Assembly: GCF_035594765.1 (NCBI RefSeq)
Contig: NC_085846.1
Location: forward strand, 108,239,190 to 108,303,189
Reading direction: 5' to 3'
Source: Anolis carolinensis
Taxonomy: Eukaryota
Length of the DNA stretch: 64,000 nucleotides
Shown here: piece after piece, positions 24,410-37,685 of the stretch
Layout: the number at the start of each line of letters is the position of its first letter
Position numbering within the stretch: position 1 is the stretch's first letter
Translations under genes and position numbers: made by a program
Notes under the pieces: model-generated
Databases searched by the model: none
What the model was told of the DNA's origin: nothing
The model's input: the letters and a program-made list of their open reading frames with translations, nothing else

Positions 24410-24583
24410 AGTATGTGTTGAGGTGTGTGTGGGTTTTAAATGGAGTTTTGTTAGTTGTTGTAGCTTAATTTTTCATATTAAGAAAAAAATGTAGTGGGGG
24501 ATATTGTCTTTTTGCTTTATGTAATTTCTTGTTTCTCTGTATACATTTCTGTTTGTTTATAGGTCTCTTTTCTTGAATAAAAA

Positions 24584-27500
24584 ATGTTAAAGAAAAAGCC
24601 TATCTGGGAGAAGAAGAGAAAAGGAGTGGCCCTGTATATTAATAACAAATTAAATTCATCTTTAGAATTTAAAGATAATGAGGGAAGAATAGTAGCAGTG
24701 AAAATCGAATTAAACTCAGAATCAATATTAATTTGTAATATTTATGCACCCAATGGGCCGAAAAGAAAATTTGTCAAAAATTTAAGAAATCATATCAAGG
24801 AAAGTGATTTCAATCATATTATTATAATGGGGGACTTTAATGGTATATTGGACAAAAACAGGGATAAAAAAGTAAATAAAAAGACCAAAATAAATAACAC
24901 ATTACCACAGAATTTTATAGCTCTAAAGAATGAACTTGATCTCCATGATTCGTGGAGATTGAGAAATCCCACCCAATTGGATTATACCTTCTATTCAAAC
25001 CGCCACAATTCGTGGTCAAGAATCGATATGATTTGGACGTCTAAATTATTAGCTACTAAAATAAATAAGGTAGAAATTCTTGCTAGAGACTTATCTGACC
25101 ACGGTGCTATTTTAATGGAAGTCAACAAGAAAAAAATAAATTTGAAATGGAGGTTAAATGATAATTTAATCAAAAGAGAAGAGGATATTATAAAAATTAG
25201 GCAAATGACGAAAGAATATTTCAAATTTAATAACATACAAGAGACCGACCCATTAATTATATGGGACGCCTACAAGGCAGTGGCTAGAGGGTTCTTTATT
25301 CAGCAAAAGAAGTTAAAAACGAGAATGAGAAATGAGAATTTAAAACAACTACAAAATCAAATAGAATTAAAGGAAAAAGTATTAAAAGTAAATCCTGGTA
25401 ATAATAAGATAAATCAGCAGTTAGCTATTCTAAGGAACCAGAAAAAAAACCTCGAATTAGATAACTTAGCAAATCAGGTAAAGTGGGCAAAACAATATTC
25501 ATTCAAAAACGCTAACAAGCCAGGAAAGTGGCTTGCTAGAATATTAAGGAAAAAAAGATATAGCCAACAAGTATTAAAAATAAATTCGCAAGGGAAAATA
25601 TTGTACACCGACGAGGAAATAAAGGAAGAATTTAAAAACTATTATGAGCAATTATATGAAAAGGAACGGATCAGTCAGGAGGAAATAGTAAAATACTTAT
25701 GCAAGCAAAAATTGCAAAAGATAACAGATGAGCAACGATTAGAATTAAATAAAGAAATAACACCCGAAGAAGTGAAAGGTGCGATAAAAGAATTAGAAGC
25801 AAATAAAGCGCCTGGATTAGACGGGTTTATAGCCGGGTTTTATAAAATTGAGCAGGAGGAGGTAATTGCACATCTGGTTCAAATAATGAATTTGGTCTTA
25901 ACAGAAAGTATTATCCCAAAAACATGGAGTGAAGCAGAGATAATAATGATTCATAAGGAAGGGAAAGACCAAAGTGAGGTTAAAAATTATCGACCCATAG
26001 CGTTGCTAAACTCGGATTATAAACTTTTTACAAAAATTTTGGCAAAAAGGCTATCAAAATTTCTAAATAATTGGATTGCAGACGATCAATCAGGCTTTTT
26101 ACCAAATCGTAGCACAAAAGATAATATTAGGATAATAATTGATGCAATCGAATATTATGAGCATAATCACCAAAAGACAGTAGGCTTTCTCGCACTAGAT
26201 GCCGAGAAAGCTTTCGACCAGTTGAATTGGGATTTTATAAAATTGTTATTACGAGAATTAGACATGGGGGCTCAATTTCAAAACAGTATAAATGCTATAT
26301 ACACTCAGCAAGAAGCCATTATTAGAGTAAATGGACAAACGTCTGGAAAGTTCAAAATCAATAGAGGGGCTAGACAGGGCTGTCCACTCTCGCCTTTAAT
26401 TTTTATATTGGCCCTAGAAATCTTATTGCGATCTATAAGGAAAGATAGTCAGCTAGCAGGAATAAAAGTAGATAGACAGGAAATAAAAGCCCGAGCATTT
26501 GCGGACGACGTAATCTGCATAATAGAAAACCCTAAGGATAATATCAGATTTTGGCTAAATAAAATTGAAGAATTCGGCAAATTAGCAGGGTTTAAAATTA
26601 ATAAAGATAAATCAGTGTTGTTGACAAAGAATTTGTCACCACAGGACCAGGAAATAATAAAGAAGGAAACGGGACTCCAACTAGCAAACAAAATTAAATA
26701 TTTAGGTATCTGGATTGCGGCAAAAAATAATCGCTTGCTGGAACTCAATTATATGAGGAAATGGAAAGAAATAAAAAAAGATCTGGAGGAATGGAAAAAT
26801 TTAAAGATATCTCTGTTAGGCAGAATAGCGACAGTAAAAATGTTAGTCCTTCCAAAGATGCTGTACCTATTTAGGAACATTCCTATAATAAGAAATAATC
26901 AACTGTTTAACAATTGGTACAAAGACATAAGAAAGTTTGTATGGAACAATAAAAGACCCAGGATTAAGCTCTCGACGATGCTAACCCCCAAAGAAAGAGG
27001 GGGGCTCGATTTGCCAGACCTTAAATTATATCATGAGGCCTGTGCTTTGGATTGGATTAGGGATTGGGCGAACCTAAAAAAAGTGAAAATTTTATCATTA
27101 GAAGGCTACAATTTAAGAAGGGGCTGGCATGGGTATTTATGGTATGGTAAACATAAAATTGAAAGGAATTTTGGTAATCATTTTGTTAGGTCGGCGTTAC
27201 TAAAAACTTGGACTAAGTACAAAAGATTTTTTTATGAAAAGACACCGCTTTGGCTCTCGCCGTTAGAAGCGAACCAGAGACGAGAACTAGGATGGATTTC
27301 CTGGCCAACGTATAAGGAGGTGTTAAACTGGTCAAATATGAATGGACTACCAGAGATTAAGAAGTTAGAAGAAATTCAAATTAATTACAAGAATGTATCA
27401 TGGCTACATTATTACCAGTTAAGAGAATGTTTTAGGGCTGATAAAAAACTGGGTTTTAGTCCAACTAATGAGTTTTGGGATATTATATTACATAGAGAGA

Positions 27501-28183
27501 AAAAGGTGATAACTATTTTATATAACAAATTAGCGGAGTGGGCCACGGAAAAGGAAGTAATAAAGGAACCAATGTTAAAATGGTCAAGAGACATAAACAG
27601 GCCAATTCTAATAAATGAATGGGAGGCGATATGGAATAAGAAAATTAAGTATTGCCGGGCCACTGACCTCAAGGAAAATTGGATTAAAACTATCCATAGG
27701 TGGTATCTGACGCCTAAAAAAATTGCCTTAATGTACAATAATATAGATAACAAATGTTGGAGATGTAGAGAGCAGGTTGGGTCATACATCCACATGTGGT
27801 GGAGCTGTAAAAAAGTTAAAAAGTTCTGGTCAATAATTAATTTGGAATGTAGGAAAATTCTGAAAATTAATTTGGAATATAAGCCTGACCACTACCTATT
27901 AGGGTTATATAATATCTTCGAAAACGAGAATAAAGTAGAAGCCAAAAATAAGGAGAATTTAGAGAAAATCTACACTTACTTAATAACGGCAGCGAGATTG
28001 GTAATTGCCAAATACTGGAAGCACTCAGAAACCCCTACTAGAGAGATGTGGTTAGACAAAGTAATGGAAATCAAGAACATGGATAAGCTAACCTTTTTGA
28101 CTAAAAAAAATACAGGAGGAATAATGAAAGAAACGGATTGGACACACTTTGAAGAATACGTAGAAGAAGAGCTAAGAAGATGA
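24584..28183 (+). CDS. L1 ORF2 (APE endonuclease lacking its N-terminus, reverse transcriptase, C-terminal CCHC knuckle); first 8 codons come from flank/TSD
   Basis: 1199-aa open frame with EN motifs NIYAPN, GDFN, SRID, SDH; RT motifs YRPIALLN, QGCPLSP, FADD, KYLG; CWRC-x8-H-x4-C. Confidence 0.95.
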   Translation: MLKKKPIWEKKRKGVALYINNKLNSSLEFKDNEGRIVAVKIELNSESILICNIYAPNGPKRKFVKNLRNHIKESDFNHIIIMGDFNGILDKNRDKKVNKKTKINNTLPQNFIALKNELDLHDSWRLRNPTQLDYTFYSNRHNSWSRIDMIWTSKLLATKINKVEILARDLSDHGAILMEVNKKKINLKWRLNDNLIKREEDIIKIRQMTKEYFKFNNIQETDPLIIWDAYKAVARGFFIQQKKLKTRMRNENLKQLQNQIELKEKVLKVNPGNNKINQQLAILRNQKKNLELDNLANQVKWAKQYSFKNANKPGKWLARILRKKRYSQQVLKINSQGKILYTDEEIKEEFKNYYEQLYEKERISQEEIVKYLCKQKLQKITDEQRLELNKEITPEEVKGAIKELEANKAPGLDGFIAGFYKIEQEEVIAHLVQIMNLVLTESIIPKTWSEAEIIMIHKEGKDQSEVKNYRPIALLNSDYKLFTKILAKRLSKFLNNWIADDQSGFLPNRSTKDNIRIIIDAIEYYEHNHQKTVGFLALDAEKAFDQLNWDFIKLLLRELDMGAQFQNSINAIYTQQEAIIRVNGQTSGKFKINRGARQGCPLSPLIFILALEILLRSIRKDSQLAGIKVDRQEIKARAFADDVICIIENPKDNIRFWLNKIEEFGKLAGFKINKDKSVLLTKNLSPQDQEIIKKETGLQLANKIKYLGIWIAAKNNRLLELNYMRKWKEIKKDLEEWKNLKISLLGRIATVKMLVLPKMLYLFRNIPIIRNNQLFNNWYKDIRKFVWNNKRPRIKLSTMLTPKERGGLDLPDLKLYHEACALDWIRDWANLKKVKILSLEGYNLRRGWHGYLWYGKHKIERNFGNHFVRSALLKTWTKYKRFFYEKTPLWLSPLEANQRRELGWISWPTYKEVLNWSNMNGLPEIKKLEEIQINYKNVSWLHYYQLRECFRADKKLGFSPTNEFWDIILHREKKVITILYNKLAEWATEKEVIKEPMLKWSRDINRPILINEWEAIWNKKIKYCRATDLKENWIKTIHRWYLTPKKIALMYNNIDNKCWRCREQVGSYIHMWWSCKKVKKFWSIINLECRKILKINLEYKPDHYLLGLYNIFENENKVEAKNKENLEKIYTYLITAARLVIAKYWKHSETPTREMWLDKVMEIKNMDKLTFLTKKNTGGIMKETDWTHFEEYVEEELRR

Positions 28184-33751: not shown

Positions 33752-34155
33752 GCCCCCGGTGACACAATGGGTTAAACCAATGGTTCTCAACCTGGGGTCC
33801 CCAGATGTTTTTGGCCTTCAACTCCCAGAAATCCTAACAGCTGGTAAACTGGCTGGGATTTCTAGGAGTTGTAGGCCAAAAACATCTGGGGACCCCAGGC
33901 TGAGAACCACTAAACACTTGTGCTGGCAGGACTGCTGACCTGAAGGTTGCTGGTTCGAATTTGGGGAGAGTGTGGATGAGCTCCCTCTATCAGCTCCAGC
34001 TCCCCATGTGGGGACATGAGAGAAGGCTCCCAGAAGGATGATAAAACATCAAAACATCCGGGCATCCCTTGGGCAACGTCCTTGCAGACGGTTAATTCTC
34101 TCACACCAGAAGTGACTTGCAGTTTCTCAAGTCGCTCCTGACATGAAAAAAAAAA
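33752..34155 (+). mobile_element. tRNA SINE with Vingi-like tail, interrupted by a hAT MITE
   Basis: Head gcccccggtgacacaatgggttaaac, B box ggttcgaat, tail gtcgctcctgacatg(A)n. Confidence 0.88.
33778..33911. mobile_element. hAT palindromic MITE nested in a SINE head
   Basis: caatggttctcaacctgggg...ccccaggctgagaaccact; right TSD partly deleted. Confidence 0.9.
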
Positions 34156-35707
34156 TCATAATGATGCCTCCTCCCTTTCGCAAACATATATTAGCTGCAT
34201 TAAGAGAGGAGGGTTCTTCTCCTAATGTGGATATTATATAACAAAATATGTTTTCAAGATATAATGTGAATTTTAATTTTTTTAAAATTATTTTGAAATG
34301 AATAAAGAGAAGTGGGTCCTTTTTGCAAGCAATCAGAGCACAAATAAATGATATTTCCATAAGGTTGGTGGTGGTCAGGCCAGGAGACATTGCTTAAGTT
34401 GCTTTAGAAAGTAACTGATGTAGAATACCAGCCATTCTTTGCTGATATTCAATATTTAAGACAGCCAGATATAATATATATATATGAGCCTAATTCCAGG
34501 TTTGGTGGATGCAGCGGTATTCAACTTATTTGTTCAAGCTAACATTTAGACATCATGGATGTTTTACAAGCAGCTAGAAAAAGCAAGAAAACAGGATTAA
34601 TCAGGACTGTCCTTACTAAATTGGAAAGTTGGACAGGATGAAGTCTTGCACTTTGAAGCTCTGCTCTTGAACTCCATTTTTACTGGCTTTGGAATTAATA
34701 TTAAACAAAATCTAAATACACTTTGCATTTATGGGAGAGATGGGGGTGATAAGAAAGGAACAGAAAGAACAATATTGTGCCACACATAATTGTGACTGCA
34801 AGGATTTCATTTGTGGAAACAAATTAAACATGGATCGTTTCCTGTAACTCTCTAACAATTATTAAATTTCCTTGCAGCCATATTGGCAGAAGGCAAGGAA
34901 ATAAACCTCTTTAGTATATATTAGAAACAATATTTCTCTCTTCCCATTACTAACAGGAAAATACAATGTTTTTTTCCAACTTGCTTTTAATAAACAGTAT
35001 TTTTTTTCATTTTTGTAGTAATTCTGAGTTATTGCATAAGCGTTTTGGTCATGATCTACAGATTACAAACAACAGGATCAGTTGTGACAGAACCTCTTGA
35101 CAACTTTGATTAGCTGGTTTTGCTTTTTGTTATTGTTATGTACCTTCAACTCATTTCTGACTTAGGGTATATATTAGGCTTGATCGATCCACGAAAAATT
35201 TGATTCTAAACTCGTTTCAAAACTAGAGGGGGGCAGCTTTTCGTTTCTGATGGTATTTCCGAATTTGGCCCCCAAAAAAAATTCGAAATTAACGAAAATT
35301 CGTTATTTTCTAAATTAATTCGTTAATGGCGGACGCGCATGCGCAATTCCCAAAAACAGCACAGAGGGAGAGGACTTTACAGGACTCTCCCACCCTCATT
35401 TTTTGAGTGATCTTCTTCAAAATTGGTACAGTGGTAGAACACATTTAACACTGATAGCTCACCAAAATTTGGAACGTTTCCCTTATCCTCTGATTTTTGG
35501 CGAATTTTCATAGCTTTTATAATAAACCATTTTTTAATAATTGCAGAAATCTGTTCCTGGTTTGAAAGTCTTATTTCCTGTTAAATTGGGTTGTCTTTAC
35601 TGTGAAAGTCATTGTTCTACTTCAGAAACTTTGTTTTTGTGGCTGAAACTTTGTTAAATTGGTGTGTGTGTGATATATACTGTGTATATATATATAGTCC
35701 CTGCATA

Positions 35708-35708
<1 letters not shown>

Positions 35709-35740
<32 letters not shown>
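35709..35740. repeat. (TG)n microsatellite
   Basis: Read directly. Confidence 0.98.
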
Positions 35741-35743
<3 letters not shown>

Positions 35744-35744
<1 letters not shown>

Positions 35745-36073
35745 GGTAAAGGTAAAGGTATCCCTTGACGTTAAGTTCAGTCATGTCTGACTCTGGGGGT
35801 TGGTGCTCATCTCCATTTCTAAGCCCAAGAGCCAGTGTTGTCCATAGACACCTCCAAGGTCATGTGGCCGGCATGACTACATGGAGTGCCATTACCTTCC
35901 CGCCACAGCGGTACCTATTGATCTACTCACATTGGCATGTTTTCAAGCTGCTAGGTTGGCAGAAGCTGGAGCTAACAGCGGGCACTCACTCTGCTCCTGG
36001 GATTTGAACCTGGGACCTTTCGGTCTGCAAGTTCAGCAGCTCAGTGCTTTAACACACTTCGCCATCGGGGCTC
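35744..36073 (-). mobile_element. Sauria SINE nested in the composite hAT
   Basis: Full length, from (ACCTTT)n tail to gagccccgatggcg head. Confidence 0.95.
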
Positions 36074-36179
36074 ATGTATATATAATATACATACACATAC
36101 ACACAATGTGGAGAATATGTGGAAAGGTAGATAGATAAGTTGGGAGCCACAGCGAAGGCACCTTCCTGGGAGCAAGGTC

Positions 36180-36233
<54 letters not shown>
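36180..36233. repeat. (TAA)n microsatellite
   Basis: Read directly. Confidence 0.98.
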
Positions 36234-36235
<2 letters not shown>

Positions 36236-36384
36236 TCCTTACAATATCCAAGATGGCTCACTGCTACAGAATCTTGGGAGGTTTAGTTTGATATGGTACC
36301 ATTATTGGCAAAGAAAGCTAAGCTGTAGGAGTTGAAATCCAATCATTTATCCTCCCTATAGAATCAATTTTATATGCATTTTTA

Positions 36385-36670
36385 GCTACAGAAAAGCTAA
36401 AATCAGGACAGTAAAAGAACAACACCCAGAAAATGGGAATTCCAGACAGGAAACAATCAGGGCCAGCTAATACCTCCCAACAAAGGATTCCCCCAGGTAG
36501 GAAGCAGCCAGGCTTTGAAGCTGCAAGGCTATTCAATGCTAATCAAGGTGACCAATTGCAACATTCACACTTGCCTCCCACAGACAAGAGTTCTTTCTCC
36601 CACCCTGGACCTTCCACAGATATATAAACCCCACTTGCCTAGCTTCGCACAGACGTCAAAACCTCTGAGT
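36385..36670 (+). mobile_element. Penelope-like fragment inside the composite hAT
   Basis: Colinear (reverse complement) with 62520-62695; stops at acctctgag, the first hammerhead core box. Confidence 0.85.
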
Positions 36671-36671
36671 A

Positions 36672-36815
36672 TCAGGCCTGAGCTGAGGCGAGGCAGCGGC
36701 GGCCATTTTCCCCCTCCGTCTTCCTCCTCCTCCTCGGCCTCCTTCCCCCTCGCCCCCTCCCATTGGCTGAGCCCGTGACGCCCCTTTTGCTGAGGGGCAA
36801 AAGGAAAGGGCCTGA
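36672..36815 (-). promoter_or_regulatory. GC/CpG-rich promoter-like cargo
   Basis: Minus strand: cgtcac (CRE half-site), cagccaatgg (CCAAT box), purine-rich G tract, aaaATGGCCGCCGC (YY1 motif overlapping a possible start codon, MAAAAS). Confidence 0.45.
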
Positions 36816-37184
36816 ATGGTGGGAGTTTGGGTGATTTGCAAAAGCTTTTTTTTCCTAACGAAAAAAACGATGACATAACGAAAAACGGCCTCTCGCGATT
36901 CGAAACCGCGATATCCAGACGTGTGGACAACCAATGCCGTATATTGCTTCAAAACAAACGAAAATAACGAATTAATAACGGTTAACGGGGAAAACGAATT
37001 ATTTGAGCAAGCCTAGTATATATACCCTAGGGTAACCCTATATAACACGATTTTCTCGGCAATTGTTACAATTGTATTGTTTACATCACTGCATGACAAT
37101 CTAGAGCTCTCCAGATCACCATATGTTGCCACTGAATATATTTTAGCTAGGACACATGGCAGAGTTATGCCTGGCTACCTCGAG

Positions 37185-37339: not shown

Positions 37340-37685
37340 CCAAATAGGCTGAAATATCCTAAAGCAGTGGTTCTCAACCTGTGGGTCCCCAGATGTTTTG
37401 GCCTTCAACTCCCAAAATTCCTAACAGCTGGTAAACTGGCTGGGGTTTCTGGGAGTTGTAGGCCAAAAAGCATCTGGAGACCCACAGGTTGAGAACCACT
37501 GCCTTAAAGTAACCAGATCCCATGTGATCTTGGAAGATTAGCAGGATCAACCCTGGCTAGTACTTCAGCGGGTGACCACCAATGAATACAAGGTGCTATA
37601 TTTGAGAGGAAGGAACTAGCAAAACCACACCTGAAAGAAAGAAAACCCTATTCAATTGATGAGGTTGTAACAGGAATTGAAGAAA
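37340..37685 (+). mobile_element. 5S rRNA-derived SINE3 interrupted by a hAT MITE
   Basis: tgatcttggaagattagcagg.tca.ccctggctagtactt (5S internal control region) ... aagaaaacccta. Confidence 0.75.
37365..37501. mobile_element. hAT palindromic MITE
   Basis: TIR cagtggttctcaacctgtgggtc / gacccacaggttgagaaccactg; TSD tcctaaag/ccttaaag. Confidence 0.93.

What the first reader, a model, noticed from the sequence alone, without database searches (positions are those of the whole stretch)
36672..36815. Housekeeping-promoter-like fragment (CRE, CCAAT, YY1/ATG) inside the transposon
Seen: ~140 bp of very GC/CpG-rich sequence in an AT-rich window. On minus, in promoter order, it has cgtcac, cagccaatgg, a G/A-rich leader and aaaATGGCCGCCGCT (MAAAASPQ). 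It is bracketed by inverted tcaggcc/ggcctga and points into the Penelope fragment in antisense. Known: YY1 sites overlapping AAGATGGCG-type start codons and CCAAT boxes are typical of CpG-island promoters. Inference: a captured gene promoter or first exon that could act as a mobile Pol II promoter, or drive antisense Penelope/SINE RNA from many copies.
Basis: partly seen in the sequence, partly recalled or inferred. Interest (0 to 1): 0.7.

Follow-up and report, generated by a model that had tools for sequence, protein, structure and literature searches.

The report
Lizard transposon stole zinc-finger gene promoter
More than 1,100 copies of a lizard jumping gene carry a stretch that matches, and was likely copied from, the predicted on-switch of clustered zinc-finger genes; the copies likely sit methylated and silent rather than switching other genes on.

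Summary
The motifs are real. The patch lies in an 1841-bp non-autonomous hobo-type hAT element (35175-37015, 8-bp TSD). Window 36673-36784 is homologous to the predicted promoter/first-exon region of clustered tandem C2H2 zinc-finger genes: about 86% identity over some 325 aligned columns in the full-length family, and a same-strand finger exon 4-23 kb downstream in 17 of 20 non-hobo loci checked. The other 3 belong to a second hAT family that carries the same promoter. The piece replaced the transposon's own 5' sequence and is absent from 7 of 7 autonomous elements. At least 1153 copies carry it; 233 share this copy's ~390-bp deletion. Capture removed the upstream CCAAT and GC box. The CRE half-site, ATG frame and 'inverted bracket' are not conserved features. 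Transposon copies lose CpGs 10-15 times faster than other C/G sites; host copies do not (0.4-1.7). So the transposon copies are likely methylated cargo. No near-identical donor was found, and transcription was not tested. This scan noted the block before on other DNA but found no donor. Precedent: bat Helitron promoter capture; a 100-genome Pack-TIR survey lists zero for this lizard.

The parts
35175..37015 (-). Non-autonomous hobo-type hAT element, 1841 bp; its 5' end (relative to the transposase of autonomous relatives) is at 37015
   Evidence: TIRs and TSD; TIR matches hobo_AC in Table 1 of PMC3014272; orientation from autonomous copies
35167..35174 (+). Left 8-bp target-site duplication
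37016..37023 (+). Right 8-bp target-site duplication
36825..37015 (-). hobo 5' terminus, about 191 bp, 83-86% identical to autonomous elements; CpG-rich subterminal region
36789..36828 (-). Arm of an unrelated palindromic MITE (11 bp deleted in this subfamily); supplies the right-hand ggcctga
   Evidence: 4947 matches to the MITE word; 88-98% over 50 bp for the undeleted form
36673..36784 (-). Captured piece of a zinc-finger-gene promoter/first exon: remnant of GC box with CGTCAC, one CCAAT box, purine-rich leader, YY1-like ATG word
   Evidence: Local alignment score 118 to host copy L245 vs shuffle maximum 43; homology to host copies starts at this same base
36762..36766 (-). CCAAT box (the downstream one of a host pair spaced 40-42 bp)
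36775..36780 (-). CGTCAC 'CRE half-site'; not conserved in the donor family
   Evidence: 7 of 54 non-hobo matches carry it, 44 of 54 read CGTCCC
36696..36710 (-). YY1-like word overlapping an ATG; motif conserved in host copies, reading frame not (YY1 label recalled)
   Evidence: 35 of 40 host copies have the word; distance to the next GTGAG falls in all three frames
36672..36673 (.). Junction of a ~390-bp deletion that removed the predicted splice donor, the rest of the captured region and the end of the Penelope piece
   Evidence: 233 copies share it
36399..36672 (+). Penelope-like fragment, integral to the family (left edge approximate)
   Evidence: PMC3014272 describes a Penelope piece in group A
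35746..36073 (-). SINE, integral to the family; its 3' part is shared with the 3' end of autonomous elements (strand from recall of the SINE's layout)

Best explanation
The patch is a piece of the predicted promoter and first exon of the lizard's clustered zinc-finger genes that was likely copied into a hobo-type hAT transposon and now likely rides as methylated, passive cargo in more than 1,100 copies. Shown: homology, its sharp start, copy numbers, absence from autonomous elements, and CpG decay in transposon copies but not host copies. Inferred steps: (1) during repair of a broken or excised hobo element the template switched, just after the 191-bp 5' terminus, to a MITE arm and to a zinc-finger promoter, replacing the element's own promoter region and transposase with about 1.2 kb of foreign DNA; (2) the ends stayed intact, so hobo transposase in trans amplified the element; (3) later deletions made the sister (320 copies) and window-type (233 copies) subfamilies; (4) new copies are methylated in the germ line, so the truncated promoter is mostly off.
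For: Host homologues without hobo ends: 30 matches, 54 matches, 40 scored, mostly on contigs C18, C19, C26; 1 of 87 aligned host loci had a hobo TIR word in its 3-kb locus, apart from the promoter. Collinear match over the full-length segment: 282 of 323 aligned columns for L245, score 262 vs shuffle maximum 47; 279 of 325 for L300; similarity runs to the Penelope junction. Same-strand poly-C2H2 exon 4-23 kb downstream in 17 of 20 non-hobo loci (Pfam zf-C2H2). Direction: hobo copies form one clade (100/100), sister to host copy L300 (95/94), inside a clade with L296/L297 (100/99) (midpoint root); hobo copies differ about 1% from their majority, host copies much more; host copies continue upstream with a second CCAAT at 40-42 bp in 43 of 44. 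Segment absent from 7 of 7 complete autonomous elements and unrelated to their own 5' region (score 19, shuffle mean 20). Elements with the same terminus subtype but the native continuation exist, about 36 of the first 100 of 1886 listed by hand count. CpG transitions in the segment: 17/530 vs 5/1580 (window type, 30 copies), 15/712 vs 5/3561 (29), 40/1090 vs 15/4008 (28), equal to the terminus rate (p 0.52, 0.15, 1.0); host paralogues 0.4-1.7-fold.
Against: No near-identical donor was found (best about 86% in aligned columns, with many indels), and the hobo stem is long (0.15-0.24). That stem shows no CpG loss (0-3 of 16-23 host CpGs read TG/CA in hobo), which fits a recent capture from an unsampled paralogue but also fits unmethylated, possibly active master copies. 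CpG decay is an average and does not exclude active single copies or active tissues. The host regions are called promoters from motifs, position and lack of CpG decay; no start site or splice was shown. In 1 of the 17 loci a short antisense finger fragment lies before the sense exon, and paralogues are not independent. The first tree left the hobo clade in a polytomy.
Confidence: 0.77

Rival explanations
1. Same origin, but the captured piece is a working mobile promoter in many copies, driving antisense Penelope/SINE RNA or chimeric host transcripts.
For: One CCAAT box and the YY1-like word are intact in most copies (30/30 and 22/30 in the window type). No CpG loss on the hobo stem. About 61% of matched hobo 5' ends carry the capture (1153 vs 1886). 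Bat Helitrons with captured promoters reached higher copy numbers (PMC4224331, passages).
Against: CpG decay 10-15-fold, no slower than the terminus; upstream CCAAT and GC box lost; motif retention is what 1% divergence gives without selection; copies with the native 5' region also amplified.
Confidence: 0.12
2. Counter-defence: small RNAs made against the many hobo copies, or factor titration by them, dampen the zinc-finger genes, which may repress transposons.
For: 18 of 44 host promoters share an exact run of 25 nt or more with the window fragment. A second hAT family carries the same promoter, in two arrangements (16 of 24 loci TSD-bounded). Analogues: TART-A/nxf2 (10.1101/2020.02.20.957324, abstract), maize gene capture (10.1101/777037, abstract), zinc-finger genes against transposons (PMC10547256, abstract).
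Against: Host promoters show no CpG decay, in the captured or the uncaptured part (low power, and selection could mask it). No KRAB or SCAN exon was found between promoter and finger exon in 3 of 3 genes scanned, so a repressor role of these genes is unshown. A large, GC-rich, multi-copy promoter family is an easy target by chance; multicopy Pack-TIRs tend to capture high-GC sequence (PMC8277862, passage).
Confidence: 0.07
3. The segment is the transposon's own leftover transposase promoter, or the host promoters derive from the transposon.
For: It sits where the autonomous element has its own CCAAT-bearing region, facing inward. The non-autonomous terminus is only 82-86% like the sampled autonomous one, so an unsampled parent lineage exists; only 150 of 1206 hAT-domain candidates were scored.
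Against: No similarity to the autonomous 5' region; absent from 7 of 7 autonomous elements; truncated at a MITE arm, while host copies are complete, more diverse and surround the hobo clade in the tree; the native continuation survives in the same terminus subtype.
Confidence: 0.04

Closest known systems
hobo-N1 to N6/N14_AC non-autonomous hAT families of Anolis carolinensis (PMC3014272; parts 2, 3 and 5 of 6 read, term search of the whole text)
   Same: 11-bp TIR, 8-bp TSD, about 1% divergence, embedded Penelope and SINE pieces, size near hobo-N1 (1854 bp, 300 copies) or hobo-N14 (1911 bp, 235 copies).
   Different: The paper reports captured DNA and transposon scraps but its main text has no 'promoter', 'zinc finger', 'exon' or 'CpG'. 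The exact subfamily could not be assigned; its supplements were not available and could bear on this.
HelibatN3 and other promoter-capturing bat Helitrons (PMC4224331; passages read)
   Same: A DNA transposon amplified a host promoter, 5' UTR, first exon and part of intron 1 to about a thousand copies.
   Different: Rolling-circle element and a conserved gene (NUBPL) there; here a cut-and-paste hAT, a multi-copy lineage-expanded zinc-finger family as donor, and a second capture by another hAT family.
Multicopy Pack-TIRs in animals (PMC8277862; passages and one supplement row read)
   Same: TIR element flanking host-derived GC-rich sequence, distinct TSDs, donors on other chromosomes; the frog example is an hAT with a 5' UTR piece.
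   Different: That survey found only four multicopy cases in reference genomes (the frog example has three copies) and lists 0 Pack-TIRs and 0 hAT consensus for anoCar2; this family has at least 1153 copies and no unique parent.
TART-A capture of nxf2 in Drosophila (10.1101/2020.02.20.957324; abstract read)
   Same: A transposon carries sequence of a host gene class linked to transposon control.
   Different: There piRNA targeting of the host transcript was reported; here no effect on the donors is shown and the CpG test gave no sign of one.

Membership tests
Non-autonomous hobo_AC (hAT) | 11-bp TIR of the hobo_AC type at both ends | tested here: met
   vs Table 1 of PMC3014272
Non-autonomous hobo_AC (hAT) | 8-bp TSD differing between copies | tested here: met
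   18 of 18 loci with both full flanks readable, of 30 examined
Non-autonomous hobo_AC (hAT) | Termini shared with a transposase-coding element; no transposase of its own | tested here: met
   191 bp at 82-85% and 875 bp at 85% shared with 7 of 7 autonomous elements; ORF has zf-BED and Dimer_Tnp_hAT
Specific subfamily (hobo-N1 vs hobo-N14) | Match to published consensus | not testable with these tools
   Supplements unavailable; size and copy number fit either only in part
Pack-TIR | Internal sequence duplicated from host DNA that lies outside any TIR element | tested here: met
   Host homologues lack hobo ends and precede zinc-finger exons
Pack-TIR | An unambiguous parental locus | tested here: inconclusive
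   Best paralogues about 86%; junction and similarity searches found no near-identical parent
Pack-TIR | Microhomology at capture breakpoints | tested here: inconclusive
   A few shared bases at the hobo/MITE and MITE/promoter joins are visible; not tested against chance
Active CpG-island promoter (host copies) | No germ-line CpG decay; conserved CCAAT pair, GC box, YY1-like word | tested here: met
   (factor names recalled; downstream CCAAT and most GC-box counts are set by the search pattern, the upstream CCAAT is not)
Active CpG-island promoter (host copies) | Transcription start site and splice to the finger exon | not tested
   No raw RNA reads or CAGE were laid on a host gene
Active CpG-island promoter (hobo copies) | Protection from CpG decay | tested here: not met
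   10-15-fold CpG transitions, equal to the terminus
KRAB/SCAN zinc-finger genes (as donor class) | KRAB or SCAN exon between promoter and finger exon | tested here: not met
   No such Pfam hit in sense frames of 38 aa or more in 3 of 3 genes; other donors not scanned with Pfam

The most novel reading that the evidence does not exclude
hAT transposons of this lizard have repeatedly taken up the shared promoter of a large zinc-finger gene family and spread it to over a thousand sites because it pays: silencing RNAs or factor titration aimed at the copies also turn down the host's candidate anti-transposon zinc-finger genes, the first such counter-defence by a DNA transposon in a vertebrate.
Probability: 0.07. 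Interest if true: 0.85.

Novelty: new variant of a known kind. Interest (0 to 1): 0.5.

Why it matters
It names the source of cargo in a known lizard transposon and gives a vertebrate cut-and-paste element that amplified a host promoter piece to over a thousand copies, where a 100-genome survey found only four multicopy cases and none in this lizard. The same sequence now sits in about a hundred apparently unmethylated host promoters and over 1,100 apparently methylated transposon copies. That is a ready natural test of what keeps a CpG island open (upstream CCAAT and GC box, or position) and of whether captured gene pieces cause cross-silencing in vertebrates as in maize and flies. It also warns that repeat masking and multi-mapped reads will confuse these zinc-finger promoters with hobo copies.

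Tried and rejected
Own transposase promoter: rejected. Single-copy donor by junction patterns: one search gave a sister subfamily (320), a MITE family (4947), two loci (a chance-level 45-bp match and a hobo copy with an insertion). Plain DNA searches return only the top 40, all hobo copies. Conserved protein start at the ATG: rejected, frames 0/1/2 in 10/22/2 of 34 host copies with both words, many with early stops. CRE as core element: rejected (9 of 29 in the sister subfamily). RNA family in the patch: none; Rfam hits lie elsewhere and below cut-off. Trans-methylation of donors: no sign. Expression: no RNA holder listed; contigs of four guessed-RNA runs cover the segment and the hobo terminus at similar summed depth, and one contig bridges terminus, MITE arm and promoter piece; contigs show neither start, strand nor level, so this counts neither way. 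One search had a wrong region bound for the sister subfamily; one search replaces it. One search dropped one hobo row and had an unsettled bootstrap; one search used 36 rows (host copies with score 140 or more and long alignment, duplicates removed). Literature searches for a prior description of this capture (listings only unless cited) showed none; one search was too loose to inform. PMC10547255 (passages) had nothing on lizards. Host genes in the window were not annotated beyond a long-ORF list.

Full report
Observation. The 144-bp stretch is the GC maximum of the window (66.7% vs 39.6%) with 8 CpG (observed/expected 0.52); the adjacent 144 bp of transposon end has 16. The minus strand carries CGTCAC, CCAAT, a purine-rich leader and an ATG in the stated order. 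The open frame is 16 codons. The Penelope-like piece next to it lies on the plus strand, by alignment to the region behind a Penelope-type ORF in L204 (the ORF label is recalled), so the patch faces it in antisense.

The carrier. The patch lies in an element at 35175-37015 with 11-bp TIRs and an 8-bp TSD. All 30 loci fetched with the patch share element sequence, most of them end to end at 94-99%, and 18 of 18 with both flanks readable have their own perfect TSD. The TIR is that of hobo_AC of Anolis carolinensis (PMC3014272, Table 1), so the genome is likely the green anole. Seven complete autonomous elements (15-21 kb, ORF with zf-BED and hAT dimerisation domains) share only the first 191 bp and the last 875 bp with the non-autonomous element. 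Their own sequence after base 191 has a CCAAT word but no similarity to the patch (score 19, shuffle mean 20). Of 1886 hobo 5' ends matched, about 36 of the first 100 listed keep the native continuation, some with the same terminus subtype as our family (hand count). So about 1.2 kb of foreign DNA replaced the element's inside.

Subfamilies. A full-length form keeps about 390 bp of GC-rich sequence. A sister form (320 matches, nearly all of one junction type among the 100 listed) and the window form (233) arose by deletions that start at the same base and remove a conserved GTGAG word. At least 1153 copies carry the junction in front of the patch. The 50 bp after the hobo terminus are an arm of an unrelated palindromic MITE. 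The 'inverted bracket' is therefore made of a MITE word and a deletion join.

The donor. A loose end of one contig gave a variant word that matches 30 places, all on contigs C18, C19, C26 and C88. The 20 fetched have no hobo ends and align to the patch from one fixed base onward. A pattern excluding the hobo junction found 54 places, 49 on C18/C19/C26; homology again starts at that base. Of 20 such loci followed downstream, 17 have a same-strand tandem C2H2 exon 4-23 kb away, one as a divergent pair with a homologue on each strand. Pfam confirms the fingers and finds no KRAB or SCAN between promoter and fingers in 3 of 3 genes. The best paralogues match the full-length segment collinearly: 282 of 323 aligned columns, score 262 against a shuffle maximum of 47; 279 of 325 for L300, with similarity up to the Penelope junction. 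In a 36-row tree the hobo copies are one clade, sister to L300 (95/94), within a clade with L296/L297 (midpoint root; the smaller tree left this unresolved). Host copies run on upstream with a GC box and a second CCAAT 40-42 bp away in 43 of 44; the hobo copy is cut inside the GC box. The YY1-like word (35 of 40) and GTGAG (35 of 40) are conserved, the reading frame is not, and CGTCAC occurs in only 7 of 54. Factor names (NF-Y, YY1, Sp1, ZNF143) are recalled, not from a call. No near-identical parent turned up.

A second capture. The 3 loci without a finger exon belong to another hAT family with a CAGAG-type TIR like hAT-N6 to N8_AC of Table 1. A search with one of them found about 20 dispersed relatives at 77-91%; 16 of 24 loci examined are bounded by matching ends and an 8-bp TSD with 0-2 mismatches, 15 in one arrangement and 1 flipped. 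These older elements kept the upstream part of the promoter.

Function. In three hobo subfamilies (30, 29, 28 copies; the searched words excluded) CpG transitions in the segment are 10-, 15- and 10-fold above other C/G sites and no slower than in the terminus. In two groups of host paralogues (12 and 20 copies) the ratio is 0.4-1.7. By established knowledge of methyl-CpG deamination, hobo copies are likely methylated in the germ line and host copies are not. Against a purely passive reading, the hobo stem shows no CpG loss, which fits either a recent capture from an unsampled paralogue or unmethylated master copies. Exact runs of 25 nt or more are shared with 18 of 44 host promoters, enough in principle for small-RNA cross-talk, but host promoters show no extra CpG decay in the shared part. 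Transcription of hobo copies and the exon structure of the host genes remain untested.

Known and new. The carrier family is known (PMC3014272), though that text never mentions promoters, exons or zinc fingers (supplements unseen). Promoter capture with thousand-fold amplification is known from bat Helitrons (PMC4224331). For TIR elements in animals, PMC8277862 found four multicopy cases and lists none for anoCar2. Three earlier notes of this scan saw the block on other copies; none found a donor and one read it as the transposon's own promoter. New here are the donor family, the replacement of the native 5' region, the second capture and the methylation contrast. Verdict: real feature, captured zinc-finger-gene promoter piece, likely passive; new variant of a known kind; interest 0.5.

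Noticed in passing
L336-L358 (e.g. G000:C1:223359861-223360665; C5:157078.6-157079.5 kb): A second, older hAT family (CAGAG-type TIR, 570-907 bp, 8-bp TSD) carries the same zinc-finger promoter, in two arrangements.
   Followed up: partly
L091-L109, L162-L168: Complete autonomous hobo elements are 15-21 kb, longer than the 9-15 kb published, with long tandem arrays before the 830-842-aa open frame; at least 150 hAT-domain matches, many in intact frames.
   Followed up: partly
G000 contigs C18, C19, C26; C4:256.19 Mb; C1:2.2 Mb: Large clusters of finger-only C2H2 genes (9-24 fingers) with a shared double-CCAAT promoter, some in divergent pairs.
   Followed up: partly
L183-L185 (G000:C88:26781-27593): The promoter is triplicated in tandem with a period of about 392-396 bp.
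   Followed up: no
L140-L159: A palindromic MITE with 4947 matches to its arm word, often in inverted pairs and tandem units; its arm is fused to the captured promoter in hobo.
   Followed up: partly
L117, Penelope part of the full-length family: A hammerhead-like core (pattern recalled) with one altered core base is present; the window subfamily's deletion removed most of it.
   Followed up: no
L161: A hobo copy with a ~930-bp insertion exactly at the promoter/Penelope junction.
   Followed up: no
window 37486-37604: Weak 5S rRNA match (31.9 bits, below the cut-off of 38), likely a pseudogene or 5S-derived repeat.
   Followed up: no
window 24581-28180 (+): A 1200-aa open frame that looks like a LINE ORF2 by eye; not scanned.
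   Followed up: no
window 33781-33909 and 37366-37500: Two copies of a short palindromic MITE; the second causes the sub-threshold microRNA hits.
   Followed up: no
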